This document shows positions 12,769 through 36,599 of a stretch of DNA of 64,000 nt, one piece after another. Numbering within the stretch: the stretch's first letter is position 1; the number at the start of each line of letters is the position of its first letter. This DNA is from an uncultured virus (IMG/VR IMGVR_UViG_3300021964_000043) (lineage: Duplodnaviria > Heunggongvirae > Uroviricota > Caudoviricetes). Where the stretch lies: IMG/VR virus record IMGVR_UViG_3300021964_000043; one strand, written 5' to 3'. The position numbers and the translations under genes were made by a program. The notes beneath the pieces were generated by a model. It saw only the letters and a list, made by a program, of their open reading frames with translations, did not search any database and was not told the origin of the DNA.

Positions 12769-12772
12769 TTGT

Positions 12773-23958: not shown

Positions 23959-23974
23959 TAGATTAGAAATTAGA

Positions 23975-24382
23975 ATGCTAGAGATTTTACACAAAGGTTC
24001 AAAAGCGTGTTTCATTGATGACACTGGGCGGGATCACATAATCCCTATATTTTCTGTTGGCAGATATCTCGCTGAAGGAAGATACGTCGTTAAGGTCGAA
24101 GGGCTTGAACAAGAGTTTAAGCATATTATTGAAAAGCTTAAAATAACTGAAAATCATAGTGTGCATTGCTATATTTCTCCTAAGTTTGCAAAGTCTTTTG
24201 ACGTTCACACAGATCCTATAGATGTATTTATATACTGTCTCGAAGGGACTAAAGTCATGTCAATTGATGAACAATTGGTTTATATCGAACCAGAGACTTT
24301 TGTCAGAATACCCGCAAACACTCCTCACAGAGCTTTAAATATATTTGATTCTACGATGTTATCAATAGGAGTTGAAAAATGA
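23975..24382 (+). CDS. JmjC/cupin-type oxygenase (ROXA/Cupin_4-like, short)
   Basis: YISP...SFDVHTD..DVF...EGTK...IPANTPHRA (HxD...H). Confidence 0.75.
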   Translation: MLEILHKGSKACFIDDTGRDHIIPIFSVGRYLAEGRYVVKVEGLEQEFKHIIEKLKITENHSVHCYISPKFAKSFDVHTDPIDVFIYCLEGTKVMSIDEQLVYIEPETFVRIPANTPHRALNIFDSTMLSIGVEK

Positions 24383-24549
24383 AATATGCCGTTTACGTTG
24401 AAATAGACACAAACGAATTTATGTATGATACTGGTAATGATGCAATTAACGTTGGTGATAAACCATTACTATTTGATACAAAAGAAGAAGCAGAAAAAAG
24501 AGCTAAATTATGGAAAACAGGAACTGTAGTCGAATATCCATATGATTAA
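24379..24549 (+). CDS. Hypothetical 56-aa protein (not in ORF track)
   Basis: Manual translation MKYAVYVEID...PLLFDTKEEAEKRAKLWKTGTVVEYPYD; AGGAG SD; ATGA overlap. Confidence 0.65.
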   Translation: MKYAVYVEIDTNEFMYDTGNDAINVGDKPLLFDTKEEAEKRAKLWKTGTVVEYPYD

Positions 24550-25576
24550 AAACGACACTATGATCTACGTCAAAACGACGGAGACGTGTAACTTAAATTG
24601 TGATCACTGTTTTACGAACGGTATCAATGGAGCAAAAATTTATTTTAATCCAGATGCTGTCGCAAAATGGTGTAATGAGTTAAAAGAGTTAATGCCACAA
24701 ATGACTACTCATTTTGAGTTTCATGGTGGTGAACCTTTTCTTGCTCCCGTTGATGATATGTGGAGATTCTATGAATTGACACAAGAAAAATGGAACGGTG
24801 ACGCGACTTATGGTATCACTACTAACCTGGTTGTAAAACTTACTGAAAAAAGATTAGACTTTTTAGACCATGTGTGCAATAAACGTATTGGTACGTCATG
24901 GGATCCAACAATTCGATTTGATAACGAAAAACAGCGAGAGCTCTTTGAATCAAACATCAAATTATTATTACAAAGAGGTTATATTATTAAGCTGTTTGTA
25001 TCACTTACATGTGATACTATTGAAATGGGTCCTGAAAAACTTATGCGTTATGTCAAAGATTTAGGCGTACAGGAAATGGCTCTTGAAAGAATTACTCATG
25101 ATGGCAATGCAACTCGTAATCCCGTATTTCCATCTAACCTAGCACTTCAAAATTATTTTCTTGATATGCATAGATTCATAGAAGAAAATGATGCACGTGG
25201 TTGGTTTGATAATGAGTTTATGGAAAACATATACACTAAATTTGAAACTGGATATACGGGTGCTGGTACATTTTGCCGAGATTGTGAGCAAAAGCTCTTT
25301 ACAATTAACGCAGATGGAGGGATAGCTGGATGTCCAAACTCAGCTCCGACAAGTGCTTTTGGACATATCTATATCCATCCTGAAGAAGTAATCAAAGCAC
25401 CAAAACGATGTAACGTAATCATGGAAGAATTACAAAGAGATCCACGATGTTACGATTGCAAAGTGTATAAATACTGTAAAGGCGACTGCCACCAACTTGC
25501 ATGGGAAGGTGATATATGTGGCGCGCCAAGATTTTTAATGAAAGAATTGGACGAGAAATATGGCAACACTAACTAA
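24542..25576 (+). CDS. Radical SAM/SPASM-domain protein (rSAM-1)
   Basis: CNLNCDHC; FHGGEP; C-terminal CRDC...GCPN...CYDCKVYKYCKGDC...C. Confidence 0.92.
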   Translation: MIKNDTMIYVKTTETCNLNCDHCFTNGINGAKIYFNPDAVAKWCNELKELMPQMTTHFEFHGGEPFLAPVDDMWRFYELTQEKWNGDATYGITTNLVVKLTEKRLDFLDHVCNKRIGTSWDPTIRFDNEKQRELFESNIKLLLQRGYIIKLFVSLTCDTIEMGPEKLMRYVKDLGVQEMALERITHDGNATRNPVFPSNLALQNYFLDMHRFIEENDARGWFDNEFMENIYTKFETGYTGAGTFCRDCEQKLFTINADGGIAGCPNSAPTSAFGHIYIHPEEVIKAPKRCNVIMEELQRDPRCYDCKVYKYCKGDCHQLAWEGDICGAPRFLMKELDEKYGNTN

Positions 25577-26141
25577 TCCAGTTGAAGACGATAACATTGC
25601 GGCGAGATTTAATGATTATCTACCGCCAGCAGCAAATACAGGTATTTCGTGGGGAACTAATGCGCATCCTTTTTCTCACGGCGATTGGCCTTTGTATTTT
25701 GGTGGAAGTACAAGTGGTAGATCTTCGACTCTTACTGGCGCATCACTAAAAAATAGTGGTGATCTTATTACCGCGGGTGGTCTAGAATCTGCAATTGAAA
25801 CCGAAACTTATTATTATACCTCTATTCGTAGTTTAAGAGCTCAACATAATATTACTGGTGGTGGAGGTAATACTGGTTCACAACCTACTCCAGGTATTAT
25901 CTACGACCAAACAGCAATTGCTTATCTGAATAGCAATTACTATCAATCTGCAGTATATTACGGTTCTATTGGATTAGGAATTGGGTCTTATACACAAGTC
26001 GATGACTCCCATCTTGAACAAAAATTTGACCAATTAAGAACTCTTTATAATACTGCAAGAGGAGCAACTACAACAATTACCCTAAACACGTGCCATGCGT
26101 CTTGCCATAGCTCGTGTCATGGTTCAAGAGGAAGAAGATAA
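25560..26141 (+). CDS. Putative rSAM substrate/structural-like protein with C-terminal (CHxS)3 motif
   Basis: G/S/T/Y-rich body; ends TCHASCHSSCHGSRGRR, which holds the only three Cys of the protein. Confidence 0.7.
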   Translation: MATLTNPVEDDNIAARFNDYLPPAANTGISWGTNAHPFSHGDWPLYFGGSTSGRSSTLTGASLKNSGDLITAGGLESAIETETYYYTSIRSLRAQHNITGGGGNTGSQPTPGIIYDQTAIAYLNSNYYQSAVYYGSIGLGIGSYTQVDDSHLEQKFDQLRTLYNTARGATTTITLNTCHASCHSSCHGSRGRR

Positions 26142-26812
26142 TGAAATTGATTGAAACGACCGCTCCCATTTCTTTGGAAGAGCTTAAATTATTTTTTAAT
26201 GATAAAAATATTACGTATATGGTTCATTATGAAGATTCAACTCTTCAAGGACCAAAACTTTTAACCTATTTGAGTAATTTAGAAATTCCGTGTGATATTG
26301 GATTTACTACTCAAGATGGGTTTGACGAAATGACTAAGGCTTATTTGGAAGCGAATATTATAGTTAATATTCCCATTCTAAAAGAAAGAGTAGTTAACTT
26401 ATTGCTTCAAATGAAAGGCTTACTTGAATTAAAGGAAAAAGAGTTTATTGACGCAAATGTCGATATACTAAAAGACTGGGCTAAAAAACTAGATGCACTT
26501 ACTCTTTATAATCTATATACTGTAAATTCATCCGAGATTAAAGAATATGTTGAATCACATCCAGAAGATGATACAAAAGATTTGACTGGTATTAACTGGG
26601 TAAGCTTGTTAGACGTTGAAAAGTTTTTTAGATTTTATGGAAACGTTATACCAGAGCATAAGGTTTATTACAAGTCTTATTTTAACGAATATATGTTTAA
26701 GGGAAAAAATCTTTATAGTTACTGGGCAAACGAAAACAATCCCATGTTTCTATTAACTAACGGTATCGCTACCGGCGCATTACAGGAGAATAATAATGCT
26801 ACATCTATTTAA
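26141..26812 (+). CDS. Hypothetical protein in the rSAM island
   Basis: Likely start MKLIETT at 26141 (TAATG coupling). Confidence 0.75.
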   Translation: MKLIETTAPISLEELKLFFNDKNITYMVHYEDSTLQGPKLLTYLSNLEIPCDIGFTTQDGFDEMTKAYLEANIIVNIPILKERVVNLLLQMKGLLELKEKEFIDANVDILKDWAKKLDALTLYNLYTVNSSEIKEYVESHPEDDTKDLTGINWVSLLDVEKFFRFYGNVIPEHKVYYKSYFNEYMFKGKNLYSYWANENNPMFLLTNGIATGALQENNNATSI

Positions 26813-27947
26813 GAAAGTTTACGTAGCAACCGACACTTATATAGATATGGCAATTGATAGAGTCGTTATCTCAAAAGAAAATGGTTTTGAGGCTAGTGAA
26901 CTTTTACAGCTACAACAACCAGGAAAGCTTATTGCTTATGCCCAAGAGGTAAAAAACCTTATTGGATCTAAAGACCGAGCGTTTATGGATACAATGGATA
27001 TGTTTGATAAGCTTGGTGATCACACAGACGCTACTGGAAAACGAGTAGTTGTATATTGTGATGATAAAGCTTTTAAGATTGTTATGGCTCTATGGTTTAG
27101 ACTTATATTTAAGAAAACAAATGCTGACGCTGCTGTTGATCTTCTCGAATCAATGGTATTTAAGCATAAGCTATTTGGCCAATCAAGATTTGTTTCGAAC
27201 AATGGTAACACAGACAATCCATATGAGATAGACATTACTGGATTCAAAAAGGTTTTTGAAGGTGCGCAAAAACCATCAGCTGAAAGACGTAAAAAGTTTC
27301 TATCTGAAAACAAAGCAGCATTAAGCCTTGAATATCTATTGGCAACTTATCTTGCTAATGGTAAACTAAAAGGTGAATTAAAAACTGTACTTCGTATTCT
27401 CTTAAAAAAGGACCTTGAAAAATATTTGTATGAGCTTAAGGAAATTTTCTTTACTCATATCATTACTCAAAGGTTTACCTCAACTCTTAAACTTGAAAAA
27501 ACCTATGACTTTACTAATTATGATACTATCCTTAAAGACGAATCAGAGTTTCCAAAATTATTCATGGATCCAAATGTTTGGACAACACCATATATGAGTA
27601 AGCCAAGTTCTGGCAAAAATATTAACTTTGAAGGAATCACTGATAAGCATATTAAATCATTTGCTAAATTTGCTCAATTGGCTGGAGCGTGTTGGGCTGA
27701 AGAAAGTATTTACGAATTCGTAAAGTCTGATACTTCAAAGCTAGATTTTATTAGTGCTATTAAAGGTGATAGTATGACAGACACTATGCTTAAATATATT
27801 CTTGAAGTTGAGTCAACATATGAGCACGCAGCTGGGTCATTCTTCTCTATTGACCTTGAGACTGTAAATCATTATTTTGTACAAGCTCTTTTGGACGCTT
27901 GGAATGATGGCAATAAAGAATTCTTGGAGCAATACTCAGTAATGTAA
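26796..27947 (+). CDS. Hypothetical protein in the rSAM island
   Basis: 383-aa ORF with AGGAG SD; no recognised motif. Confidence 0.75.
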   Translation: MLHLFKKVYVATDTYIDMAIDRVVISKENGFEASELLQLQQPGKLIAYAQEVKNLIGSKDRAFMDTMDMFDKLGDHTDATGKRVVVYCDDKAFKIVMALWFRLIFKKTNADAAVDLLESMVFKHKLFGQSRFVSNNGNTDNPYEIDITGFKKVFEGAQKPSAERRKKFLSENKAALSLEYLLATYLANGKLKGELKTVLRILLKKDLEKYLYELKEIFFTHIITQRFTSTLKLEKTYDFTNYDTILKDESEFPKLFMDPNVWTTPYMSKPSSGKNINFEGITDKHIKSFAKFAQLAGACWAEESIYEFVKSDTSKLDFISAIKGDSMTDTMLKYILEVESTYEHAAGSFFSIDLETVNHYFVQALLDAWNDGNKEFLEQYSVM

Positions 27948-28966
27948 TGGATATTTACGACTTAATTGATACAAAAGTAGTTCGTTATGGTGAAATAGTC
28001 GTATGTCTATTTGAACACTGTAACCTTAGATGTTCTTTCTGTCCACAAGATCACTCTTCAGTTATTGGTGCATCTTACGAAGAAATTACTGATAAAGTAA
28101 AATCAATTGTTGAGTGGATTAACAATAATCCGCGACAGCAAGCTTATAAGATTCATCTAATGGGTGGCGAATTATTTCAAGATCGATGGATTGAAGAAGA
28201 TTTTTTAAGTTACTATCAAGACCTAATTAGTCTTATTGATGCTCAAACAAAAGCTGATATTCATTTTAATTTTATCACTAATTTAGTGTTTCAAAATCGA
28301 AAACCAGTTTTAGATTTTCTAAATCGTAACAATCTTAAGATATCGATTAGCTATGATCCATCTGGTCGATTTAATAAAAATGATTTAGAAATTTTCACTC
28401 GCAATATAATCTATTTTCAAGACCATATTGAAATGGTTTCCCTTGTAGCAACCAAACAAAATATAGATCGTATTATTGCTGGTGATCATTTATTTGAAGA
28501 TCTATACACTAACTATACTTGCGACTTTGATCATTTTCTGCCGTCGGTTGCTACGTCCAGAATTATGATGCCAAGTGAAAAAGATTTATTTGAATTCTAT
28601 AAGGTGTTAGTGAATAAATACCCTAAGTGTTTGAACGTTAATCACTTTGTGAATGACAAGCCAGCAAATAAAATGATATGCACAAGAGGTAACTCTTTGA
28701 CTATTATGCCTGATGGTGCTAAGCCTCAAGGTTGTTCTGGTGCAGTATTCTTAAAGGAAGCTCAAACCGAAGATTTAGGTGGACCACAAATTGTTGAGAA
28801 TTTTCTTGACAAATATAATTGTTTTGAATGTGAATATTTTCCACGTTGCCCTTTATCATGTTTTATAAAAGAAGACTATAAACACATAGAACAAGATATG
28901 AGTGAGTGCGTTTTTAAGGCGACTTTTAGATATGCAGATAGCATTTATAAATCCACCACACGCTGA
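27947..28966 (+). CDS. Radical SAM protein with SPASM/twitch-like C-terminus (rSAM-2)
   Basis: CNLRCSFC; MGGELF; CTRG...GCS...CFECEYFPRCPLSC...C. Confidence 0.9.
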   Translation: MDIYDLIDTKVVRYGEIVVCLFEHCNLRCSFCPQDHSSVIGASYEEITDKVKSIVEWINNNPRQQAYKIHLMGGELFQDRWIEEDFLSYYQDLISLIDAQTKADIHFNFITNLVFQNRKPVLDFLNRNNLKISISYDPSGRFNKNDLEIFTRNIIYFQDHIEMVSLVATKQNIDRIIAGDHLFEDLYTNYTCDFDHFLPSVATSRIMMPSEKDLFEFYKVLVNKYPKCLNVNHFVNDKPANKMICTRGNSLTIMPDGAKPQGCSGAVFLKEAQTEDLGGPQIVENFLDKYNCFECEYFPRCPLSCFIKEDYKHIEQDMSECVFKATFRYADSIYKSTTR

Positions 28967-30602
28967 CTGGTCACTAGCAAACAATGTGACCTACCTTTTA
29001 ATACAGAGTCACTATAAGCACCGAGGCCGTTATGCAGATCAAGTCAAATTCATTCCAGCACCATACAAATGGAATCAATATGAATCATATAATGACGTCA
29101 TCTCAGAAATTGAATCTGCTGATGTCATCATGTTCAGTTCCTATGCCTGGAACTATACAATTGTGGATGGGATCGCAATTGAAATCAAACAGCGCTATCC
29201 AGAAAAAATCTTAGTACTTGGTGGACCACACATTGGTACTAATGACCCTGAGTTACTAAAAGACAGATTTTATTACGATTATATTTGTGAACCTACTAAA
29301 CCAGGTGAACCATTTATGGAAGACCTAATTGATTGTTATATTGAAGGGCGTTTAGACTCAAAAAATATAGCATGGGAACTTTATAATGGCAAAGGTCGTA
29401 TTCATGATTTGTCTACCGAAGATTATTCTATATATGAAGAGCATATTGAATATCTAACAGAAACTGTTAAATATGCTAGACAAAATGACATGGAACCTTT
29501 TATTGTTATCGAAACAACAAGAGGTTGTCCATATAAATGTGTCTTCTGCGAGTGGGGTGGAGGCATTAACACTAAGATCTATAAAAAAGATATTGACATT
29601 GTCAAACGCGATATCCTAGCTATGAAAAAAGCCGGATATCGTGATGCTTATCTGACTGACGCAAACTTTGGCGCGTTTGAAGATCGTGATATCGAAATAT
29701 TTTCATTTGCCTGGAACAATGGATTTAATTTAACCGACATATCTACAATGAAATCTACCGATATTAAAAGACGTAAACGACTAATTGATCGTTGGTTTGA
29801 GGTAGTTGGTAAAGATCGTAGATCACCAAAGTCTGGTGATGGAAGAGATATGTGGGAAGGAACAGGATTTGTTTCTATTGTCCCAACGGTATCAATTCAA
29901 AGCATTAGTGAAAGGGCTATGAAATTAGCTGATCGTATTGACTTGTCAACAGAAAATAAACTTGAACTGAGTAGGTATATCAATCAACGATGTGCTGAAC
30001 ACGGATTTCCTATTCCTGCTCTTGAACTTATCCTAGCTATGCCTGGTTCAACAATACAAGATTTTTATGACGAAATGGAAATCATTTGGAATTTTAAGGC
30101 ATGGGGCTCTTATCGTCATGATTATATGTTTTTGCCTGATTCACGACTAAACTCTGAATCATATAAAAAAGAACATAATATTGAAACAGTCGAAGTCTAT
30201 TCTGATATTGTAGACGAAGACGGTACTGATAATTGGAATAGTCTATATAAGGATAAGAAAACTTATTTCCATACCATTCGTTCTTGCAATTCATTTACTA
30301 CAAATGAAATGTATGAGATGTGGTTTATGAATAATGCTTCTAATTACCTATTAGAAAATTTTTATCCAGCTTTTAATGATATTTGTGACCCTTCAAGGTT
30401 TACAAAAGAGTGTTTTTGTGTTATAATATATCTAGATGAGTGGGAAGGGATATATAATGAAATAAAGGATATTTTCGATCCATCTACTCCACCACGCTCT
30501 ATTAGGCAACTAGGTGGTAAATTTAGAGTAGACACAGTAAATGAGTTTTTGCAAAGAAATAAAACATTGATAATGAGTGAACTATTTAGGAGACTAGCAT
30601 GA
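28932..30602 (+). CDS. Cobalamin-binding-domain radical SAM protein (rSAM-3)
   Basis: Likely start MQIAFINPP; FSSYAWN...VLGGPH B12-binding-like region; ETTRGCPYKCVFCEWG; DANFG; ELILAMPG. Confidence 0.85.
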   Translation: MQIAFINPPHADWSLANNVTYLLIQSHYKHRGRYADQVKFIPAPYKWNQYESYNDVISEIESADVIMFSSYAWNYTIVDGIAIEIKQRYPEKILVLGGPHIGTNDPELLKDRFYYDYICEPTKPGEPFMEDLIDCYIEGRLDSKNIAWELYNGKGRIHDLSTEDYSIYEEHIEYLTETVKYARQNDMEPFIVIETTRGCPYKCVFCEWGGGINTKIYKKDIDIVKRDILAMKKAGYRDAYLTDANFGAFEDRDIEIFSFAWNNGFNLTDISTMKSTDIKRRKRLIDRWFEVVGKDRRSPKSGDGRDMWEGTGFVSIVPTVSIQSISERAMKLADRIDLSTENKLELSRYINQRCAEHGFPIPALELILAMPGSTIQDFYDEMEIIWNFKAWGSYRHDYMFLPDSRLNSESYKKEHNIETVEVYSDIVDEDGTDNWNSLYKDKKTYFHTIRSCNSFTTNEMYEMWFMNNASNYLLENFYPAFNDICDPSRFTKECFCVIIYLDEWEGIYNEIKDIFDPSTPPRSIRQLGGKFRVDTVNEFLQRNKTLIMSELFRRLA

Positions 30603-31105
30603 ATATAAGAAAAGAGCTAGAAACAAAAGGATTTGTAAAACTAAAAGAAGATGGTGGCCTTGATTTAATTCGAATTGATGACCATAAATTGCTAAACACC
30701 GAAGAACGAGCAAGAGATAACGGTGAAAAAGATGTTGATATTCAATTAACAAATAAGCTTAGACTTTTTGCATACTACTTAGAAAATCTTTATGTTAAGC
30801 CAAATTGGCCAAACGCATCGTTCAATAAATTTCTCGTATGGGAAGGTGTCGACAAAGACAATCAGGGTTGGCATACTGATACCTTTGAAAGCTATGATAT
30901 TTTCTTTTTATATTATTTTGATGATACACATGAAGAAACTGGTGGGTCAATAAGTTTCAAATGGGACGAAGATTGTGAAGCAGTATTTCAGCCCTCAGCA
31001 GGTGACTTATTTATGGTATCAAATGCAAGAGGTTTTTGGCATAAAGCTGGTGCCACACAAATAAAAAGGAGGGTCGCTAGTTTTGACTTCTCTATCCACG
31101 AGTGA
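30599..31105 (+). CDS. Fe(II)/2-oxoglutarate oxygenase-like protein
   Basis: WHTD...LYYFD...GGSI...FWHKA...RRVASF; paralog of 32057..32605. Confidence 0.75.
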   Translation: MNIRKELETKGFVKLKEDGGLDLIRIDDHKLLNTEERARDNGEKDVDIQLTNKLRLFAYYLENLYVKPNWPNASFNKFLVWEGVDKDNQGWHTDTFESYDIFFLYYFDDTHEETGGSISFKWDEDCEAVFQPSAGDLFMVSNARGFWHKAGATQIKRRVASFDFSIHE

Positions 31106-31385
31106 TATCATCGAAAAGAAAAGAATTCTGTGTAATGAAAGAGATTTAACTGCAGAATTGTATAACCTATGGATTACTAAACTTCATGAATTTCAAGGCA
31201 ATGAAGAAAAATACAATATGTATGCTCTTATGATTGAGAACCTTGAACCATATTCAAATATGCTAAAAGAAGAAATACGAGAATGTAATAGACAAATATG
31301 CGAAATTGAAGGCGTAGAATCTATAAGTGATACCAATTTTGAGCAAGAATGCGTGTATAAATATGGGTATGATAAACCAAATTGA
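31083..31385 (+). CDS. Hypothetical helical protein
   Basis: ORF in the operon; start uncertain (TTG). Confidence 0.55.
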   Translation: MTSLSTSDIIEKKRILCNERDLTAELYNLWITKLHEFQGNEEKYNMYALMIENLEPYSNMLKEEIRECNRQICEIEGVESISDTNFEQECVYKYGYDKPN

Positions 31386-31397
31386 TGAGAGCTGAAA

Positions 31398-32054
31398 ATG
31401 ACTATTAGAGAAATTTATCCAACTAATATCTATGAAAAAGAACTTGATATTAGTGAAGAAAAACTGAAAGAAATCGAGACCTTTTTAAGAGCTCAACATA
31501 AAGCTTTTATGAGTTCTCCGGATATGGATCACGATGAATATTCAGATGGTAATGAAAACATTGTAATAGATGCTGTCATCGAAGGGCAATGCCCAGAAAT
31601 GAAAGAACTTATTGATGAGGTTAAAAAGGGTTTTCTTACTTTGGCTTATAGTAACCTCGACAACTTTACTGAATCTAATACCGACTCTATGTTACTTGAC
31701 GTCGAGTTAGATTCTTGTAAAATTAACCTAATGAAAAAAGGTTATCGTCTTGGTGCTCACACTCATTATTCAGATGATGCTTTTGCATGCATTTATTTTA
31801 ATGATGTGACCGAAGAAGAGGGTGGCGAACTAGTACTATATGATCCACGTTGGCAGAGAAACTATATGTTTGGCGGGTCTAAACAAGAAAAAATTAAGTC
31901 TAAAAGAGGAAAAATGGTAATTGCTCCTCAGTATCTATGGCATGAAGTAACTCATTATCATGGTGAAGATGAAAGACTTACCTTAGTTGTAAATGCCCAA
32001 GTAGTAAATAAAGGAAATGAGTTAAGAAATAAGAGAACTCAGCACACGGTGTAA
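31398..32054 (+). CDS. Fe(II)/2-oxoglutarate oxygenase (TIGR02466-like)
   Basis: HTH...CIYF...GGELVLYDPR...PQYLWHEV...RLTL. Confidence 0.8.
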   Translation: MTIREIYPTNIYEKELDISEEKLKEIETFLRAQHKAFMSSPDMDHDEYSDGNENIVIDAVIEGQCPEMKELIDEVKKGFLTLAYSNLDNFTESNTDSMLLDVELDSCKINLMKKGYRLGAHTHYSDDAFACIYFNDVTEEEGGELVLYDPRWQRNYMFGGSKQEKIKSKRGKMVIAPQYLWHEVTHYHGEDERLTLVVNAQVVNKGNELRNKRTQHTV

Positions 32055-32056
32055 AA

Positions 32057-32605
32057 TTGGAAAAAATTATAGAATGCATGGATAGTGAAAAACCAAAGGA
32101 AATGACTAACGAACAAACGTTTTTTGTAGATGGTTATTGGTTAGACAAATTACCAAATAATGTCAATATTGATATTTTCGATTCCTTTGATTTCAAAGAT
32201 TGTACAGAACCAGAAGAAGTCTGGTTAGATCCAAGAGCACAGGCTGATCTCGATAAACTCCACCAATGGTTTGCAGATAACTATATCTCAAAAATGTTTG
32301 ATGATTTTGAGATGAAACAATGCGCCATGTGGTCTGGAGTAGATGAAGGCTCGCGTAATTGGCACAACGATTACGAAGATGGTGATTCATTTAATTCAAA
32401 TATTTTAGTCTATATGGATGATAATACTATTGAAAATGGAAATAATATCCAAGTAGCAAGTGGAGATTATATTAACATAATCTATCCAAAAAGACGAGAG
32501 TTTGTTTGGCTAAATCAAAAGAAATGTTTTCAACATAGGGCAACGCACACTAGCGGAGTAAGACGAGTACTTAGTTTTGAATATCTAATTCCCGCGTTAT
32601 TTTAA
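32057..32605 (+). CDS. Fe(II)/2-oxoglutarate oxygenase-like protein
   Basis: WSGVD...WHND...LVYMDD...FQHRA...RRVLSF; start uncertain. Confidence 0.75.
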   Translation: MEKIIECMDSEKPKEMTNEQTFFVDGYWLDKLPNNVNIDIFDSFDFKDCTEPEEVWLDPRAQADLDKLHQWFADNYISKMFDDFEMKQCAMWSGVDEGSRNWHNDYEDGDSFNSNILVYMDDNTIENGNNIQVASGDYINIIYPKRREFVWLNQKKCFQHRATHTSGVRRVLSFEYLIPALF

Positions 32606-32606
32606 T

Positions 32607-33638
32607 ATGGATCTAATTATTAAGCCGACTGAGTTGTGCAATTTCAAATGCACTTTTTGTTCAAGCACAAAATTAGTCGAAGACAAAGCATCAAAATTAG
32701 ATTTGATGAAAATCTTTCAGTTTCTAGATCGTTATCCAGAAACTCAAACTATTATTGTCAATGGTGGTGATCCGTTAATGATGGACCCACAATATTATTG
32801 GGAAATTATTAAATACCTAGACGATAAAAATTTACCTGCCACAATATCACTTACCACTAATCTCTGGCCATTCTATAAAAATCCTAACAAATGGATTCCA
32901 TTATTTAAGAATCCAAGAGTAGGTGTAGCTACATCATTTCAATATGGTGATGGAAGACTTAAAGGTGACTATTCAGTATTTACAGAACAAGACTTTACTA
33001 TGTGTTCTGACTATATGTTATATTATATTGGATATAGACCTTCCTTTATTGCAGTCATTACAGAAGAAAATGAGTGGAGCGTATTACAAACTGTTGAACT
33101 TGCTAAATCAATGAAGGTGGTTTGTAAAGTTAACTATGCAATGGCTTCAGGCGAACAATCAAAACCATATCGACTTTCTAAAATATATGAGCAATATATT
33201 AAAATATGGAAAGCAGGTCTTGCGCCTTGGGAACATAATACTCAACAAATGATGAAACGTATTAGAGGTGAAGCTACTATCTGTCCGCTCACGCGTACGT
33301 GTGACAGCCATATAAGAACTATTCAGCCAGAAGGTGATTATTATTCTTGTGGTGCATTTGGTGATGATAAGGATAAACCTATTGACTTTGATTTTGAAAT
33401 GAAAGGTGGGTTTGTTACACCATTAGCCAATTCACCAGAACTGAATAGCTTAAAAATGGGTTGCTATTCTTGCCCGATGTTTAGTATCTGTAATGGTTGC
33501 AAGAAAACAATTAAAGACCTTAAAGAACACAATATGGTAGAAGATCATTGTTATCATATGAAGCAGCTTGGTCCAGATATTTTAGAAGCTAATGGATTAG
33601 ATACGCAAATGACACCATACGTAAATGAATCAATATGA
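32607..33638 (+). CDS. Radical SAM/SPASM-domain protein (rSAM-4)
   Basis: IKPTELCNFKCTFC; NGGDP; CPLTRTC...YSCG...CYSCPMFSICNGC...C. Confidence 0.92.
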   Translation: MDLIIKPTELCNFKCTFCSSTKLVEDKASKLDLMKIFQFLDRYPETQTIIVNGGDPLMMDPQYYWEIIKYLDDKNLPATISLTTNLWPFYKNPNKWIPLFKNPRVGVATSFQYGDGRLKGDYSVFTEQDFTMCSDYMLYYIGYRPSFIAVITEENEWSVLQTVELAKSMKVVCKVNYAMASGEQSKPYRLSKIYEQYIKIWKAGLAPWEHNTQQMMKRIRGEATICPLTRTCDSHIRTIQPEGDYYSCGAFGDDKDKPIDFDFEMKGGFVTPLANSPELNSLKMGCYSCPMFSICNGCKKTIKDLKEHNMVEDHCYHMKQLGPDILEANGLDTQMTPYVNESI

Positions 33639-34558
33639 ATATATCAATCAACCCATCATATTTCTGTAATTTTAGATGTGACTTCTGTTATTTGACACCA
33701 CAACAATTAGGTGATCAGAAAAAAATAGAACCAAAGCAGCTTGATAAGTTATTATCTCAAATATCAGAACCTATTGACCATATTGATTTATATGGCGGCG
33801 AGATTGGAGCTTTAAAGAGGAGTTATTATAATGAAATTATCGAAGTTATTCGCTGCTGGTATTCTGGCCCTATCAACCTTAATACTAATTTCTCTATGCT
33901 TGACGACAGATTCTTCGAAGATGACATCACTCTTTCCGTCTCATACGATTTTTCAGCAAGAGAAAAATCTGACCTAGTATTTCAAAATATGATGATGAGC
34001 CCTAAGCCAATATCGGTGCTGATCTTGGCCTCACCAAGGGTTATCACCATGGACGTGGACGAGATGGTTCAGAACTTAAATCTGATAAATTCTATCATTT
34101 CTGTTGAAATTAAACCATATTCTACTAATCAAGCTAATACATTTGAAATAACTCACAAGGATTATGAGAATTTTGTTATAAAATGGTTAGAGTCTCCGAT
34201 ACAAAAAAACTTTCAATTTATCAATTATGATAACATTAAAGAGAGTTATTATAAGCGTTACAATGCTTGGAGTGATGACCATGTTTATATAACGCCCAAT
34301 GGGAAATTTGGTGTGCTAGAATTTGATCAAAACGATAATGAATATTTTTTAGAGTTACCAAGCTATCACGCATATGAACTATGGGCTTGGCAAGAAAAAA
34401 GAAAACAATCTACGGTTTGTACTAATTGTCATTGGTTTGGCCATTGCCTTACAGAACATTATAGATATGTTAAAGACTTAAAAAATTCATGCAATGGATA
34501 TAGAGGACTATTGGATTGGTATGCAAGAGTGGAAGATAAAACAACAGCTATATCATAA
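33635..34558 (+). CDS. Radical SAM protein with reduced auxiliary cluster motif (rSAM-5)
   Basis: CNFRCDFC; YGGE; CTNCHWFGHCLTEH...C. Confidence 0.88.
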   Translation: MNISINPSYFCNFRCDFCYLTPQQLGDQKKIEPKQLDKLLSQISEPIDHIDLYGGEIGALKRSYYNEIIEVIRCWYSGPINLNTNFSMLDDRFFEDDITLSVSYDFSAREKSDLVFQNMMMSPKPISVLILASPRVITMDVDEMVQNLNLINSIISVEIKPYSTNQANTFEITHKDYENFVIKWLESPIQKNFQFINYDNIKESYYKRYNAWSDDHVYITPNGKFGVLEFDQNDNEYFLELPSYHAYELWAWQEKRKQSTVCTNCHWFGHCLTEHYRYVKDLKNSCNGYRGLLDWYARVEDKTTAIS

Positions 34559-34955
34559 GCTAAATAGAAATCACCCAGATGATTTGAAATGGGTTACCAT
34601 TGAAGAATCAGACGATATTATAAACAATGCAATAAGATATTTTAGAGAAAAAGATGTTGGTTGGATTTATCCAGCTAAATCTTATATGGTAGCAATTTGC
34701 TATGCATTTTGGATTATGGAAGACTATAATGAAAATTTTTATACAGTTTTAAGTGATCCAGAATTGCTTCCATTAGATGATTATTTTGTTCCATATAAAG
34801 AGGACAAAGATACTTACAATGCTATTATTAGTGAAGTGACGGCCAATAATAAAGGCAAATTAGAAATGAAAGGGATGGTGCCAGATGTCAGACAATACTA
34901 TGAAACTGAACTTGGGGACAAATTTTCTGTTTCCCACAGCAGTGACGATAACTAA
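34521..34955 (+). CDS. Hypothetical protein in the rSAM island
   Basis: Likely start MQEWK; overlaps both neighbours. Confidence 0.65.
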   Translation: MQEWKIKQQLYHKLNRNHPDDLKWVTIEESDDIINNAIRYFREKDVGWIYPAKSYMVAICYAFWIMEDYNENFYTVLSDPELLPLDDYFVPYKEDKDTYNAIISEVTANNKGKLEMKGMVPDVRQYYETELGDKFSVSHSSDDN

Positions 34956-35415
34956 ATTCGATATTACCGACAATATAGTCGAACAGGCTATTGGGTTTGG
35001 TGAAATTACTGATGACTTACAACAACAAGTTGTAAAAGGATTTGATGAACACCTAAAGTCTACCCTTGATAAAACTACAAGCGATTGGTATCATTATAGA
35101 CTACAATCTTGGGTTAACAAGTACGAAAAAGGTCATGCCGGCATGGAAATGCATACTCATGCCGGAGCTCAACTAAGTGCCATTGCTATTTTAGAAGCTG
35201 GGCGGGGAGGTGAACTTGTCTTTCAAGATCCAAGGTCATTTGCATCACGTGGATATGACCTAAACTTTAGACCACTCTTTAATAATTTTACATATGAAGG
35301 AAATCAAGGAGACCTAATCATATTTCCAAGTTTCTTATATCACTCGGTAAGACCAGTAAATATGTTTAGAGTTTCGGCTGCTTTTGATATGTATCTATTG
35401 ACAGGTGATTTTTAA
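34885..35415 (+). CDS. Fe(II)/2-oxoglutarate oxygenase (TIGR02466-like)
   Basis: HTHAGAQLSA...GGELVFQDPR...IIFPSFLYHSV...RVS. Confidence 0.82.
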   Translation: MSDNTMKLNLGTNFLFPTAVTITKFDITDNIVEQAIGFGEITDDLQQQVVKGFDEHLKSTLDKTTSDWYHYRLQSWVNKYEKGHAGMEMHTHAGAQLSAIAILEAGRGGELVFQDPRSFASRGYDLNFRPLFNNFTYEGNQGDLIIFPSFLYHSVRPVNMFRVSAAFDMYLLTGDF

Positions 35416-36599
35416 AGCACTACTGCTTCGACTACACCAAATCTTCCATCGCCAGATTTTTTAGCTTCAAAGTCTTCAAGTGCAATAGCAAACCCATGTG
35501 GAGATGTATTATCAACTATGCCTCTTCCATCTGGTCCACCGACCAAGCGATCACCTTTTGCTACAGATCCTTTTACCTTTACAGGAACACGACCCTTTAA
35601 AGCTACTGGTAAACCATTCTCTAACTGATTGTTCATCAGATAAGCTGGTCTTGCTGATACTACGCCAAAAACAGAGTGATTATTATTACCATCACTTGCT
35701 GTTACTTCAAACTCGCCACCGGCTCTTACTACTGTGCCAGCCTCATACGCAAAATCAGAAAGATAAAGCTCAGCCAAGTCAGCATAGTTAGCTGTTGTTG
35801 CATTACCACTAAAGGTAGTTGCATGAACCGTACTCCATTTAAGAGAACTTTCTCCTAATGTATAAGAATTATTTGTGGTAGGTACAATTGCTGTATTAAC
35901 TCTAGATCCAAATGTAACTATATCACCTGCAGTTGAATTACCAAGTACAACATTACCATTAGCAGTTAACGTACTTGTTACAGTAAGAGTATCGCCAAAT
36001 GTGGTAGCGTTATTAGCAGTAAACGGGCCACTAACAGTCAACCCATTATTAATACTAGCAAGTGCACTATTAACGCTAAGACCATTATTAAGTGTAGTAG
36101 CATTAGTGACTGTTAATGTTCCTGCTAAACTCGTATTACCAGTTACATCAAGAGCGCCAGATACGTCTGCGTTTCCATTACAATCGAGTCCAGCATTTGC
36201 AATTAGTGTGCTTTGAGAGGTAGTAGTACCACCAATTGTTGCGTTGCCAGTTACGCCAAGTGTTGTACCAATACTGGCAGAAGCGCCAGTTGTAAGATCG
36301 GCATGAACATTCAAATCGCCAGTTTGGTTTAGCGTAAGTACAGTTTGAGAACCAGTAGAGATAATCATTCCAGCTGCATTACCAGCTAATTCTGTAGTTC
36401 CATCCAAAGCTTGGTCATTGATTGTAATTACATTATCAAATTGAGATACGTTTTTAATTTCATTCAAAATATCGACAATATTATTACCGGTATATTGAGA
36501 TGTCAGTTGGCCGCCATCTCCAATTAAGGTAGATAAGTCATTAGACTTAACCCTCCATTGATCAAATGTATCAGTAGTATTAACGCTAATCGCAGCCAT
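35412..36599 (-). CDS. Tail fibre/spike protein with C-terminal intramolecular chaperone (peptidase G2-like) domain
   Basis: TDTFDQWRVKSN start; beta-repeat shaft; YADLAELY...GVVS..PAYLMN...PVALKGRVPVKV.G...KGDRLV. Confidence 0.75.
   Translation of the reverse strand: MAAISVNTTDTFDQWRVKSNDLSTLIGDGGQLTSQYTGNNIVDILNEIKNVSQFDNVITINDQALDGTTELAGNAAGMIISTGSQTVLTLNQTGDLNVHADLTTGASASIGTTLGVTGNATIGGTTTSQSTLIANAGLDCNGNADVSGALDVTGNTSLAGTLTVTNATTLNNGLSVNSALASINNGLTVSGPFTANNATTFGDTLTVTSTLTANGNVVLGNSTAGDIVTFGSRVNTAIVPTTNNSYTLGESSLKWSTVHATTFSGNATTANYADLAELYLSDFAYEAGTVVRAGGEFEVTASDGNNNHSVFGVVSARPAYLMNNQLENGLPVALKGRVPVKVKGSVAKGDRLVGGPDGRGIVDNTSPHGFAIALEDFEAKKSGDGRFGVVEAVVL

What the first reader, a model, noticed from the sequence alone, without database searches (positions are those of the whole stretch)
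23975..35415. Phage-encoded RiPP-like protein-modification island: five radical SAM enzymes, five oxygenases and a candidate substrate, inserted antisense among tail genes
Seen: an 11.4 kb, tightly coupled plus-strand operon between minus-strand tail and baseplate genes. It holds five CxxxCxxC radical SAM proteins (24542, 27947, 32607 and 33635 with Cys-rich SPASM/twitch-like tails; 28932 with a B12-binding-like N-terminus), five cupin or Fe/2OG oxygenases, several unknown proteins, and one non-enzyme-like protein ending in (CHxS)3. Established: rSAM/SPASM enzymes mature peptides and proteins (thioether and cyclophane cross-links), B12-rSAMs often methylate unactivated carbons, and Fe/2OG enzymes hydroxylate. 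Inference: this is a multi-step pathway that chemically modifies a phage protein, probably a virion component. I see no protease, transporter or nucleotide-handling gene, which argues against a secreted RiPP or DNA hypermodification. I know of no characterised pathway like this in a T4-like phage.
Basis: partly seen in the sequence, partly recalled or inferred. Interest (0 to 1): 0.93.

Follow-up and report, generated by a model that had tools for sequence, protein, structure and literature searches.

The report
Radical-SAM cassette maturing phage virion protein
This marine T4-like phage carries a widely conserved set of iron-sulfur and oxygenase enzymes built around one small protein that ends in an invariant Cys-His repeat, and a relative of that protein is found in purified phage particles, so the enzymes probably modify a particle protein chemically, a process not yet described for phages.

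Summary
Window 23975-35415 (+) holds 16 tightly packed genes: five radical SAM enzymes (four SPASM-type, one B12-type), one cupin, four 2OG-type oxygenases, five unknowns, and a 193-aa protein ending CHASCHSSCHGSRGRR.

It is not a chance island. The core (cupin, rSAM1, tail protein, u232, u383, rSAM2, rSAM3, rSAM4, u153) recurs in the same order in 80 uncultured-phage loci. It also occurs in four unrelated jumbo-phage lineages: RSL2, Atu_ph07, Phosso and pPa_SNUABM_DT01. The B12 enzyme and the oxygenases are variable extras.

The tail (CHxx)3-RxRR is the invariant feature of a family of 746 clusters. In most relatives the cassette runs co-directionally inside the baseplate/fibre operon. In this window's lineage it is inverted in place, not inserted.

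The Atu_ph07 homologue (gp170, 31.9 kDa) was detected in purified virions and peaked in the top gel band. None of the neighbouring enzymes was listed.

Best reading (about 0.6): the enzymes covalently mature the Cys-His tail of a baseplate-associated virion protein. No modification has been shown. The closest known systems are the bacterial HXS defence system (an rSAM-matured HxS-repeat effector) and CrpC/CrpA protein thioether cross-linking. This cassette is a member of neither.

The parts
23975..24382 (+). cupin1: metal-dependent cupin / JmjC-like oxygenase (core gene)
   Evidence: Cupin_2 1.6e-8 and JmjC_2 1.2e-5. H78, D80 and H118 are invariant in 29 homologues. Present in 67 of 75 loci with enough upstream DNA.
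24379..24549 (+). 56-aa ORF, lineage-specific, uncertain gene
   Evidence: No family hit. No blastp hit in 82 related loci. Overlaps both neighbouring genes.
24542..25576 (+). rSAM1: radical SAM/SPASM enzyme (core)
   Evidence: CNLNCDHC motif. PF04055 31.3 bits, above cutoff. phrog_1802 2e-55. TIGR04085 SPASM 26.9 bits against cutoff 27. C-terminal CX2CX5CX3C. Present in 75 of 75 loci.
25466..25473 (+). TATAAATA, T4-type late-promoter-like motif 87 nt upstream of the tail-protein gene
   Evidence: The same motif lies within 150 nt upstream of the tail-protein gene in 25 of 79 loci, against a background of 0.022 per 150 nt.
25560..26141 (+). CHxS-tail protein: 193 aa, folded alpha/beta domain (residues 1-178) plus C-terminal tail; candidate substrate and virion protein
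   Evidence: Family of 746 clusters at E<=1e-3. AF2 model pLDDT 82.9, with no known fold found. The Atu_ph07 homologue gp170 is in the virion proteome.
26091..26138 (+). invariant tail CHASCHSSCHGSRGRR = (CHxx)3-RxRR at the extreme C-terminus
   Evidence: C, H and the three R are invariant or nearly so in A1/A2. 137 of the 150 best representatives end in this motif. The DNA pattern is unique in the window, with 0 of 100 shuffles matching.
26141..26812 (+). u232: core unknown protein (phrog_20767); its start overlaps the tail-protein stop (TAATG)
   Evidence: phrog_20767 4.6e-54. Present in 62 of 62 loci. AF2 pLDDT 85.6. No fold match: best Z 4.9, over residues 1-57 only.
26796..27947 (+). u383: core unknown protein
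   Evidence: No family hit. Present in 60 of 62 loci. Nothing in the PDB profile search or the Atlas.
27947..28966 (+). rSAM2: radical SAM/SPASM enzyme (core)
   Evidence: CNLRCSFC motif. phrog_1802 3.5e-35. C-terminal CX2CX5CX3C. Present in 62 of 62 loci.
28932..30602 (+). B12-binding (class B) radical SAM enzyme, likely methyltransferase; variable accessory gene (ORF open from GTG 28902)
   Evidence: PF02310 4.7e-6, PF04055 1.7e-5, and KedN5-type NF033712 5.5e-24 (84 bits, cutoff 700). Present in 33 of 62 loci.
30599..31105 (+). 2OG_a: 2OG-Fe(II) oxygenase (variable)
   Evidence: PF13640 1.4e-5, just below cutoff. Present in 37 of 62 loci.
31083..31385 (+). u100: unknown, variable
   Evidence: No family hit. 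Present in 15 of 62 loci.
31398..32054 (+). 2OG_b: 2OG-Fe(II) oxygenase (phrog_81; weak TIGR02466 hit), variable
   Evidence: PF13640 1.5e-7, PF13759 8.8e-7 and phrog_81 2.4e-19. Present in 17 of 62 loci. TATAAATA at 31356.
32057..32605 (+). 2OG_c: probable 2OG oxygenase, paralogue of 2OG_a (variable)
   Evidence: No Pfam hit. phrog_19592 3.6e-8. 28% identity to 2OG_a. Present in 19 of 62 loci.
32607..33638 (+). rSAM3: radical SAM/SPASM enzyme (core)
   Evidence: CNFKCTFC motif. PF04055 30.4 bits, above cutoff. phrog_1802 6.5e-53. DynA model 1.4e-11. Present in 60 of 62 loci.
33635..34558 (+). rSAM4: radical SAM enzyme with a partial C-terminal Cys cluster (core)
   Evidence: CNFRCDFC motif. 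phrog_1802 1.3e-31. C262/C265/C271/C286. Present in 59 of 62 loci.
34494..34955 (+). u153: core unknown protein (phrog_20737)
   Evidence: phrog_20737 1.8e-41. Present in 57 of 62 loci. 24 invariant columns. No PDB or Atlas lead.
34885..35415 (+). 2OG_d: 2OG-Fe(II) oxygenase (phrog_81), frequent accessory
   Evidence: PF13759 9e-12 and phrog_81 8e-24. Present in 49 of 62 loci.
35412..36599 (-). tf395: fibre-like virion protein, the conserved neighbour that precedes the cassette in relatives
   Evidence: phrog_19602 tail fibre 6e-19. 64 best-matching ORFs in the 82 loci. 49% identical over 111 aa to Atu_ph07 gp176, a virion protein.
23580..23912 (-). p110: small tail-associated protein (phrog_1084 / phrog_3304), the conserved neighbour that follows the cassette in relatives
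   Evidence: 37 best-matching ORFs in the 82 loci.

Best explanation
The cassette is a dedicated maturation line for a phage particle protein. The 193-aa protein (25560-26141) has a folded domain and a flexible C-terminal tail, C-H-x-S C-H-x-S C-H-x-S R-G-R-R.

Proposed mechanism (inferred):
- Four non-redundant radical SAM enzymes abstract hydrogen atoms in this tail and install covalent cross-links. Three have full SPASM-type auxiliary Fe-S sites and one has a partial site.
- The most likely cross-links are Cys-derived thioethers and/or His-to-C-beta carbon-carbon links within each four-residue unit.
- The cupin/JmjC-like enzyme and the variable 2OG oxygenases add hydroxylations.
- In about half of the phages a B12-dependent enzyme adds a methyl group.

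The matured protein is then built into the virion, probably at the baseplate or fibre region whose genes surround the cassette.

Shown here: the gene content, the conserved synteny, the invariance of the tail, the enzyme-tail co-occurrence, and the genomic position. Shown in print: presence of a homologue in Atu_ph07 virions. Inferred: that the tail is the substrate, the chemistry, and the place in the particle.
For: (1) Strict synteny. Cupin > rSAM1 > tail protein > u232 > u383 > rSAM2 > rSAM3 > rSAM4 > u153 holds in 80 IMG/VR loci and in RSL2 and Atu_ph07. Counts: rSAM1 75/75, u232 62/62, rSAM2 62/62, u383 60/62, rSAM3 60/62, rSAM4 59/62, u153 57/62.

(2) The tail is the most conserved part of a protein whose domain drops to 26-30% identity. 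C178, H179, S181, C182, H183, C186 and H187 are invariant in both A1 and A2; R190/R192/R193 are invariant in A1 and at least 90% in A2. 137 of the 150 best representatives, not selected on the motif, end in it. A shorter paralogous form (125-140 aa) keeps the same tail.

(3) Reverse test. Of 80 loci fetched with rSAM1 alone, 42 have the tail protein immediately downstream, 30 have a compact variant and 8 are too short. In 5 of 5 variant records searched, two tandem tail proteins lie 8-10 kb away. 4 of 4 isolate jumbo-phage lineages have the tail protein directly after rSAM1.

(4) The enzymes resemble protein/peptide maturases. The best NCBIfam hits are rSAM/SPASM peptide maturases. The best solved relatives are 8vpo and CteB (5wgg).

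(5) The four rSAMs are only 24-29% identical to each other, yet each is conserved as its own orthologue, so they are not redundant.

(6) Atu_ph07 virion proteome, Supplementary Table S5 of PMC6102473 (read). gp170 is listed at 31.89 kDa with 8 unique peptides and 35% coverage, in bands 1-9, most abundant in band 1. The computed mass of the homologue is 31,894 Da. gp176 (the tf395 homologue) and gp177 are also listed. None of gp164-169, gp171 or gp172 is listed.

(7) A late-promoter-like TATAAATA lies within 150 nt upstream of the tail-protein gene in 25 of 79 loci. Most enzyme genes show 0-11% (2OG_b 9 of 18), against a background of 0.022 per 150 nt. This fits a stoichiometric late product made alongside catalytic enzymes.

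(8) The position next to fibre/baseplate genes is conserved in T4-like, Atu_ph07-like and phiKZ-like phages.

(9) Precedents for rSAM enzymes maturing whole proteins exist: HxsA (PMC13128918, sections 9 and 10 read) and CrpA (PMC13692751, abstract read).
Against: - No mass shift or cross-link has been observed on any member. The Atu_ph07 table gives no peptide-level data for the tail.
- The band-1 peak of gp170 could reflect disulfide-linked multimers. The loading buffer printed in the Methods lists no reducing agent. Many Atu_ph07 proteins also smear over many bands.
- RSL2 ORF068 is annotated only as 'hypothetical protein', while ORF057 and ORF065 are 'virion structural protein'. I could not read the RSL2 paper, so the protein may not have been detected there.
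- No RiPP recognition element, leader, protease or exporter was found.
- Ser is replaceable by Asn or Ala in repeats 2 and 3, so a strict HxS chemistry is not required.
- Three Cys and three His spaced i, i+4 would also make a good metal site without any covalent chemistry.
- rSAM4's nearest models are generic: viperin and MoaA.
Confidence: 0.6

Rival explanations
1. The Cys-His tail is a metal or iron-sulfur binding site, not a substrate. One possibility is a structural metal site in an oligomeric baseplate or fibre protein, like the His-coordinated iron sites of T4 fibre tips (recalled). Another is a cluster or electron donor serving the neighbouring radical SAM enzymes. In either case the enzymes act on something else, such as another virion protein or a host envelope component.
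For: Cys and His are the invariant residues, while the 'Ser' positions vary (S/N/A). The i, i+4, i+8 spacing puts like residues on one face of a helix, and AF2 draws short helices at 179-182 and 184-187, though at low confidence. Exactly three repeats occur in 137 of 139 representatives with repeats directly before RxRR. The top-band migration in a gel whose printed buffer lacks a reductant fits thiol-mediated oligomers.
Against: This does not explain why four distinct rSAM enzymes and a cupin are tied to this one protein across very different phages, including genomes where the tail proteins lie 8-10 kb from the enzymes. The enzymes are not listed in the Atu_ph07 virion table while the tail protein is, so it is not simply a subunit of them. 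No other conserved candidate substrate lies in the cassette.
Confidence: 0.2
2. The matured tail protein is an infection-stage effector rather than a structural part. It could be a phage version of, or an answer to, the bacterial HXS system. In that case it would be delivered with or made after the DNA, either to help genome entry past periplasmic barriers or to exclude superinfecting phages by blocking their DNA entry.
For: In HXS, two rSAM enzymes mature a protein with five HxS repeats rich in basic residues. That protein binds DNA and blocks phage DNA entry, and each repeat is essential (PMC13128918, section 9). The phage tail has three HxS-containing units followed by RGRR. HxsB is the top, though weak, NCBIfam hit of rSAM2, and HxsC is among the hits of rSAM3. 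The known hosts of carrier isolates are all Pseudomonadota, the phylum that holds 99.7% of HXS systems.
Against: The scores against HxsB and HxsC are 26-32 bits, against cutoffs of 268-370. No HxsA or HxsD model hit was found, and nothing specific appeared in PADLOC. No signal peptide or peptidoglycan-binding domain is visible in the tail protein. The gene sits in the late structural module and its homologue is in virions, which fits a particle protein. A particle protein could still be ejected.
Confidence: 0.12
3. The cassette makes a small molecule or modifies nucleic acid. It could build a cofactor-like product on, or cut from, the tail (as PQQ or mycofactocin are made from a peptide; recalled). 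Alternatively it could hypermodify phage DNA.
For: Radical SAM enzymes take part in phage thymidine hypermodification (PMC8989533, abstract seen in a search listing). In RSL2 a dihydrofolate reductase and a second DHFR-like gene sit inside the cassette. A C-terminal tag is typical of peptide-derived cofactors (recalled).
Against: The window's island has no nucleotide-handling, kinase, glycosylase, protease or transporter gene. The DHFR genes are absent from the window and from the other isolate lineages examined. The full-length homologue is present in virions at 35% coverage. The 178-residue domain is conserved and confidently folded, which a disposable scaffold would not need.
Confidence: 0.05

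Closest known systems
HXS antiphage system (HxsA effector with His-Xaa-Ser repeats, rSAM enzymes HxsB and HxsC, HxsD); Li et al., Nat Commun 2026, PMC13128918 (abstract and sections 9 and 10 read)
   Same: Several radical SAM enzymes are encoded next to a whole protein, not a short peptide, that carries tandem H-x-S units with basic residues. There is an rSAM-dependent covalent change on one HxS-containing motif (+8 Da on SHRSS). Small accessory proteins of unknown fold are present.
   Different: HXS is bacterial, has two rSAMs, and its effector has five repeats, N-terminal processing and a peptidoglycan-binding domain for the periplasm. The phage protein has exactly three repeats, each preceded by an invariant Cys, at the extreme C-terminus, followed by RxRR. 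It comes with four to five rSAMs plus a cupin and 2OG oxygenases, and its homologue is in virions. The curated HxsB/HxsC models score 26-32 bits against cutoffs of 268-370, and the HxsA and HxsD models give no hit.
CrpC/CrpA of Methanococcus voltae: a SPASM radical SAM enzyme installing ranthionine thioether cross-links on a Cys-rich protein (PMC13692751, abstract read)
   Same: A SPASM-type rSAM acts on a neighbouring Cys-rich protein substrate rather than a short RiPP precursor. This makes thioether formation from Cys a plausible chemistry.
   Different: The system is archaeal, has a single enzyme, and has no link to a virus particle. The TIGR04463 model hits only rSAM4, at E 0.0086. There is no Cys-His periodicity.
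Radical SAM three-residue cyclophane synthases acting on His motifs (triceptides; for example HtkB, HisC2-to-LysC-beta; PMC11499958, abstract in a search listing)
   Same: The aromatic-x-x unit H-x-S/N/A fits the three-residue motif in which the ring carbon is linked to C-beta of the third residue. The YhhB, FxsB, AmcB and GrrM/OscB models are among the weak hits of rSAM1 and rSAM4.
   Different: Those substrates are short secreted peptides with leaders. All scores here are far below the cutoffs. The invariant Cys of the phage motif has no counterpart.
QhpD/QhpC (rSAM/SPASM cross-linking of the small subunit of quinohemoprotein amine dehydrogenase; function recalled, model TIGR03906)
   Same: An rSAM/SPASM enzyme makes internal Cys thioethers in a roughly 100-aa protein that then stays as a subunit of a larger assembly. 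TIGR03906 is hit by rSAM1 (5e-6) and rSAM2 (2.4e-6).
   Different: It is a cellular enzyme subunit matured by one rSAM. Scores are 25-27 bits against a cutoff of 453.
Multi-rSAM gene sets noted in other T4-like phages (marine EVG with 12 rSAM genes, PMC5332604 passage; Campylobacter phages CP220/CPt10 with 11-12, PMC2853527 passages)
   Same: These are T4-like phages with many radical SAM genes of unexplained function, clustered as modules.
   Different: No function or substrate was proposed beyond host metabolism. CP220 has no (CHxx)3 motif anywhere in its 177,534 bases, whereas RSL2 and pPa_SNUABM_DT01 each have exactly one. CP220 was not hit by rSAM1 in tblastn.

Membership tests
Radical SAM superfamily (PF04055) | CxxxCxxC motif binding the SAM-cleaving 4Fe-4S cluster, near the N-terminus of the core | tested here: met
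   All five proteins have one CxxxCxxC. The in-frame DNA matches are at 24587, 28019, 29526, 32637 and 33665.
Radical SAM superfamily (PF04055) | Pfam score above the gathering threshold (29.5 bits) | tested here: inconclusive
   31.3 and 30.4 bits for rSAM1 and rSAM3 (above threshold). 28.4, 25.5 and 26.4 bits for rSAM2, the B12 enzyme and rSAM4 (below threshold; E 2e-6 to 2e-5). phrog_1802 'radical SAM domain-containing protein' scores 1e-31 to 2e-55 for the four non-B12 enzymes.
SPASM/twitch subfamily of radical SAM enzymes (TIGR04085) | C-terminal Cys-rich domain with CX2CX5CX3C binding auxiliary Fe-S clusters | tested here: inconclusive
   TIGR04085 scores 26.9 bits for rSAM1 (cutoff 27) and 20.6 for rSAM3, with no listed hit for rSAM2 or rSAM4. 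Read directly from the sequence: CYDCKVYKYCKGDC in rSAM1, CFECEYFPRCPLSC in rSAM2, CYSCPMFSICNGC in rSAM3, and only CTNCHWFGHC plus one further Cys in rSAM4.
Class B (B12-binding) radical SAM methyltransferases | N-terminal cobalamin-binding domain followed by the rSAM core | tested here: inconclusive
   PF02310 scores 26.9 bits (cutoff 32.1) at residues 65-129, and PF04055 at residues 203-271. The KedN5 subfamily model gives E 5.5e-24 but 84 bits against a cutoff of 700, so it is not a member of that subfamily. Methyl transfer was not tested.
HXS antiphage system | HxsB (TIGR03978) and HxsC (TIGR03977) equivalogs | tested here: not met
   HxsB scores 32.1 bits (rSAM1) and 28.3 bits (rSAM2) against a cutoff of 370. 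HxsC scores 25.9 bits (rSAM3) against a cutoff of 267.9.
HXS antiphage system | HxsA effector with HxS repeats and HxsD partner | tested here: not met
   The tail protein and every unknown of the island had no NCBIfam hit at E<=0.01, so the HxsA and HxsD models did not match. Three H-x-S units are present in the tail. The periplasmic targeting and peptidoglycan-binding domain described in PMC13128918 are not seen.
RiPP biosynthetic gene cluster | Short precursor with leader and core, leader protease and/or exporter, RiPP recognition element | tested here: not met
   The candidate substrate is a 193-aa protein with a confidently folded 178-residue domain. No protease, transporter or PqqD-like hit was found in four libraries. 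The homologue is detected in virions at 35% coverage. It works like a RiPP pathway but acts on a protein.
Fe(II)/2OG oxygenase / cupin superfamily | HxD/E...H metal-binding triad in a double-stranded beta-helix | tested here: met
   In cupin1, H78, D80 and H118 are invariant in 29 sequences. PF13640/PF13759 hits exist for 30599, 31398 and 34885. For 32057 the HND...H pattern is seen by eye only, with phrog_19592 shared with 30599.
TIGR02466 family (2OG-like proteins common in marine phages) | Score above the curated cutoff (62.5 bits) | tested here: not met
   25.0 bits (31398) and 33.3 bits (34885). Both match phrog_81 '2OG-Fe(II) oxygenase' at 2e-19 and 8e-24.

The most novel reading that the evidence does not exclude
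Tailed phages of several unrelated lineages run a private, four-to-five-step radical-SAM and oxygenase assembly line. It turns the C-terminal (Cys-His-x-Ser)3-RGRR tag of a baseplate-associated protein into a covalently cross-linked knot. The knot either staples the protein irreversibly into the particle (hence the top-of-gel migration of Atu_ph07 gp170) or forms a metal-binding or redox-active tip used during envelope penetration or DNA entry. If so, this would be the first enzymatically cross-linked virion protein made by radical chemistry. It could also be the phage-side counterpart of the bacterial HXS DNA-entry barrier.
Probability: 0.3. Interest if true: 0.92.

Novelty: new variant of a known kind. 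Interest (0 to 1): 0.82.

Why it matters
Radical SAM maturation of whole proteins is known from only a handful of cellular cases. No virus particle protein is known to be made this way.

This cassette is common. The tail-protein family holds 746 clusters at 50% identity, and IMG/VR holds 367 relatives of rSAM1. It spans T4-like marine phages and three kinds of jumbo phage. It costs the phage 6-11 kb of genome, so it must matter for infection.

It offers a defined, testable substrate-enzyme set for new radical chemistry on a Cys-His motif. It would explain the long-noted but unexplained abundance of radical SAM and 2OG oxygenase genes in marine and jumbo phages. It also suggests a possible mechanistic link to the newly described HXS defence, which blocks phage DNA entry.

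Tried and rejected
- **Near-identical DNA in isolate phages:** none found. tblastn of the tail protein against isolate phages also gave no match, although four lineages do carry it. Only the short, low-complexity tail is shared with them at sequence level.
- **Whole genome of the window:** not held.
- **Complex prediction:** rSAM1 plus the tail protein, with SAM and three 4Fe-4S clusters, gave no verdict (score 0.02, mark 0.32). It counts neither for nor against binding.
- **Fold of the tail protein:** no PDB match by Foldseek at E<=0.001. BFVD returned only family members, including the Atu_ph07 protein. The VIA-align wide search gave a best Z of 3.7.
- **Fold of u232:** no Foldseek match. 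Best VIA Z was 4.9, over residues 1-57 only.
- **PDB profile searches** for u232, u383, u153 and the tail protein: nothing below E 0.05.
- **ESM Atlas** for u383 and u153: no usable lead.
- **PADLOC:** only generic viperin-like, 2OG and PDC-M51A hits.
- **Own index by place and by sequence:** nothing.
- **PhiRP31 annotation table** (PMC5468394, supplementary file 3): it shows a different rSAM cluster (ORF72-76) at the comparable site, not this cassette. I did not find its virion list in the part I read.
- **CP220:** no tail motif.
- **First count of reverse co-occurrence** (38 of 68): this was flawed, because the script often picked the second rSAM. The architecture table replaces it.
- **Literature:** Searches found no paper that assigns a function to this cassette. 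Two jumbo-phage genome papers hold all four search terms. In the one I read (PMC11898562) the genes are listed as accessory or of unknown function. PMC8066314 was seen only in the listing.

Full report
**What is in the window.** Positions 23975-35415 carry 16 plus-strand ORFs with overlapping or abutting ends. They lie between minus-strand genes on both sides. G+C is 0.33-0.35 inside against about 0.38-0.39 in the flanks, and the GC skew changes sign with the strand. The rest of the window is a T4-like structural and replication region. It holds baseplate wedge and hub proteins, tube, head-closure proteins, gp32-like SSB, a helicase loader and many fibre-like proteins. No whole genome is held for it, and no isolate phage has near-identical DNA.

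**Gene content.** Five proteins have one CxxxCxxC each.
- Four of them (24542, 27947, 32607, 33635) match phrog_1802 at 1e-31 to 2e-55 and PF04055 at 1e-5 to 1e-7. Only two pass Pfam's own threshold.
- Three carry a full CX2CX5CX2-3C cluster in the C-terminus; the fourth has a partial one.
- The fifth (28932) combines a weak B12-binding hit with the rSAM core and resembles KedN5-type class B enzymes at 5.5e-24, far below that subfamily's cutoff.

The cupin at 23975 hits Cupin_2 and JmjC_2 and keeps an invariant H-x-D...H triad. Genes 30599, 31398 and 34885 are 2OG-Fe(II) oxygenases by Pfam. Gene 32057 is a paralogue of 30599 without a Pfam hit. Five proteins have no family outside PHROGs (24379, 26141, 26796, 31083, 34494). 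The protein at 25560-26141 ends CHASCHSSCHGSRGRR. No protease, transporter or nucleotide enzyme was found.

**The cassette is conserved, and the tail protein belongs to it.** tblastn with rSAM1 found 15 isolate records, all jumbo phages of Ralstonia, Burkholderia, Agrobacterium, Sinorhizobium and Pseudomonas, at 37-45% identity.
- In RSL2, Atu_ph07, Phosso and pPa_SNUABM_DT01 (4 of 4 lineages examined) the order is cupin, rSAM1, then a protein ending CHSSCHTSCHGSRGRR, CHSSCHASCHNSRSRR, CHTSCHASCHSSRSRR or CHTSCHTSCHSARGRR. More rSAMs and 2OG genes follow.
- The tail protein has 472 relatives at E<=0.01 among 592 candidates in the 90% clusters. A profile search found 746 clusters at 50% identity with E<=1e-3, of which 380 are at 1e-10 and 113 at 1e-30.
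- Of the 150 best representatives, not chosen by motif, 137 end in (CHxx)3RxRR. Seven have three CH units with another ending, and six lack the motif.
- In 346 distinct proteins with the canonical tail, the fourth position of the three units is Ser in 337, 296 and 317 cases, and otherwise mostly Asn or Ala. Cys, His and the Arg residues were fixed by that selection. They are also invariant or nearly so in alignments A1 and A2, which were built without it.

**Synteny counts.** In 80 IMG/VR loci fetched with the tail-protein alignment (119 relatives among 185 pattern matches), blastp with the window's proteins gives a constant order: cupin1 > rSAM1 > tail protein > u232 > u383 > rSAM2 > [B12 rSAM] > [2OGs, u100] > rSAM3 > rSAM4 > u153 > [2OG_d].

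| Gene | Present / loci with enough DNA |
|---|---|
| rSAM1 | 75/75 |
| cupin1 | 67/75 |
| u232 | 62/62 |
| rSAM2 | 62/62 |
| u383 | 60/62 |
| rSAM3 | 60/62 |
| rSAM4 | 59/62 |
| u153 | 57/62 |
| any 2OG | 57/62 |
| B12 rSAM | 33/62 |

Loci hold 3 (2 loci), 4 (32 loci) or 5 (28 loci) rSAM ORFs.

**The reverse test.** I used 80 loci fetched with rSAM1 alone (367 relatives among 437 pattern matches).
- 42 have the tail protein directly downstream.
- 30 have a compact variant in which rSAM1 is followed by rSAM3, rSAM4 and u153.
- 8 are too short or unclear (the first count was faulty).
- In 5 of 5 variant records searched whole, two tandem genes for shorter proteins (124-140 aa) with the same tail lie 8-10 kb away.

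The degenerate DNA pattern for the tail occurs once in the window (0 of 100 shuffles). It occurs once each in RSL2 and pPa_SNUABM_DT01, and not at all in Campylobacter phage CP220, a T4-like phage with 11 other rSAM genes.

**Position in the genome.** In most related loci the cassette follows, on the same strand, the series gp8-like wedge protein, a 1,761-aa DUF4815 protein, a 68-aa virion protein and the fibre-like protein tf395. It is followed by the small tail protein p110. The 82 loci hold 64 tf395-like, 56 DUF4815-like and 37 p110-like ORFs. In the window, L003, L004 and two MAG-binned contigs (L165, L166) the same neighbours are present but on the opposite strand. The cassette is therefore inverted in place rather than inserted. 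Atu_ph07 has a tf395 homologue (49% identity over 111 aa) just upstream. RSL2 and pPa_SNUABM_DT01 have baseplate or spike genes nearby.

In the species-genome collection only 12 loci were found (14 relatives among 161 pattern matches). All are on MAG or bin contigs. Nine of the 12 show cassette or tail-protein genes, which looks like binned phage DNA rather than cellular copies.

**The tail protein itself.** AlphaFold2 with 36 sequences gives a confident alpha/beta domain for residues 1-178 (mean pLDDT 82.9, pTM 0.78) and a low-confidence tail. No solved fold resembles it, and BFVD returns only family members. A T4-type late-promoter motif, TATAAATA, lies within 150 nt upstream of its gene in 25 of 79 loci, inside the 3' end of rSAM1. 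Most enzyme genes show 0-11% (2OG_b 9 of 18), and the background is 0.022 per 150 nt. The window has the motif at 25466-25473. This fits a product needed in larger amounts than the enzymes.

**Published proteome.** The Atu_ph07 paper (PMC6102473; passages, Supplementary Table S5) lists gp170 among virion proteins. The entry reads 31.89 kDa, 8 unique peptides, 35.16% coverage, bands 1-9, most abundant in band 1. The homologue at L002:13071-13961 is annotated gp170 and has a computed mass of 31,894 Da. gp176 computes to 66,066 Da against the listed 66.07 kDa, so the numbering matches.

gp176 and gp177 are also listed. gp164-169, gp171 and gp172 (the enzymes and unknowns) are not listed. In the part of the table I read, the other well-supported proteins that peak in band 1 are 75-139 kDa, so gp170 runs far above its size. 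The printed loading buffer contains no reductant, so disulfide-linked forms are an alternative to enzymatic cross-links.

**Interpretation.** The most economical reading is that the enzymes mature the tail of a particle protein.
- The four rSAMs are mutually only 24-29% identical, yet each is conserved. This points to four different steps.
- Their nearest curated models are peptide or protein maturases. For rSAM1 these are TIGR04083, TIGR04133, DynA, anSME, PapB, DarW, YhhB and HxsB. For rSAM2 they are HxsB, twitch, PapB and the QhpD type. For rSAM3 they are DynA and anSME. rSAM4 is generic.
- The nearest solved chains are 8vpo and CteB, at 3e-7 and 1e-6.

The chemistry cannot be read from sequence. 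Cys thioethers (as shown for CrpC/CrpA; PMC13692751 abstract) and His-to-C-beta links (as in HtkB; abstract) are both compatible with C-H-x-S/N/A units. The cupin's JmjC_2 affinity and the RxRR end suggest hydroxylation of a basic residue, but that is speculation.

**Relation to HXS.** The bacterial HXS system (PMC13128918) is the closest described parallel in motif and logic. It has rSAM enzymes, a whole-protein effector with HxS repeats, and a +8 Da change on an HxS-containing motif, and it blocks phage DNA entry. The phage cassette fails every membership test for HXS, so it may work in a similar way but is not a member. Whether the phage protein acts at DNA entry is open.

**Literature.** Searches found these genes only as unexplained accessory genes in jumbo-phage genome papers (PMC11898562 passage; PMC8066314 in a listing only). 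They also turned up notes that some T4-like phages have many rSAM genes (PMC5332604 and PMC2853527 passages). I found no paper assigning a substrate or function. The library lacks most subscription journals, including the RSL2 paper.

**Earlier notes of this scan** describe the same or similar cassettes in other genomes and reach the same reading. They are unchecked AI notes. I re-derived the synteny, the tail conservation and the Atu_ph07 proteome entry independently here.

**Verdict.** The feature is real, widespread and uncharacterised.

Noticed in passing
window 14097-16635 (-): A tryptophan halogenase (PF04820 3e-107, phrog_2928 1e-141) and two further phrog_81 2OG-Fe(II) oxygenases sit among the tail-fibre genes. 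This is a second, separate set of tailoring enzymes in the fibre region. Two halogenase-like ORFs also occur upstream of the cassette in locus L065.
   Followed up: partly
window 4370-14059 (-): An array of at least eight small or medium ORFs shares the N-terminal module of phrog_18673 'tail fiber protein' (4370, 5686, 6979, 9504, 10716, 12033, 12773 and others). They are interleaved with unknowns and two phrog_6942 fibre C-termini. It looks like a multi-copy fibre or adhesin cassette.
   Followed up: no
L177-L181, L170, L173 (IMG/VR and MAG contigs): There is a second architecture of the system. Two tandem paralogous short proteins (124-140 aa) both end in the same (CHxx)3RGRR tail. They are encoded 8-10 kb from a compact enzyme set (cupin, rSAM1, rSAM3, rSAM4, u153, sometimes rSAM2), or directly upstream of it in L173.
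   Followed up: partly
L001 18030-19179 (RSL2 ORF073, ORF074): In RSL2 a dihydrofolate reductase and a second DHFR-like gene are inserted in the middle of the cassette, between rSAM2 and rSAM3. RSL2 ORF071 (annotated hypothetical) also carries a CxxxCxxC motif.
   Followed up: no
PhiRP31 ORF72-76 (PMC5468394, supplementary file 3): The related Ralstonia jumbo phage PhiRP31 has a different radical SAM cluster at the comparable site behind SbcC and YomR genes. It comprises a 537-aa rSAM, an 'arylsulfatase regulator' Fe-S oxidoreductase, a MoaA-like protein and an MgoB-like protein. The site seems to host alternative rSAM modules.
   Followed up: no
L165, L166 (genome collection): Contigs that carry this phage region, with the same inverted arrangement as the window, are binned into MAGs labelled Marinovum sp. 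and Methanobacteriota archaeon. These are most likely phage contigs mis-binned into cellular MAGs.
   Followed up: no
window 55667-57799 (+): A 710-aa protein with no PHROG or Pfam hit has long Gly/Ala-rich hydrophobic repeats and an odd base composition (G+C 0.45, GC skew 0.29). By its position after the baseplate hub gene it may be a tape-measure or hub-like protein.
   Followed up: no
window 23913-23974: The 62-nt divergent intergenic region created by the inversion carries TATAAATA on the minus strand, upstream of p110, and TATATAATA on the plus strand, upstream of the cupin. These are possible back-to-back late promoters.
   Followed up: no
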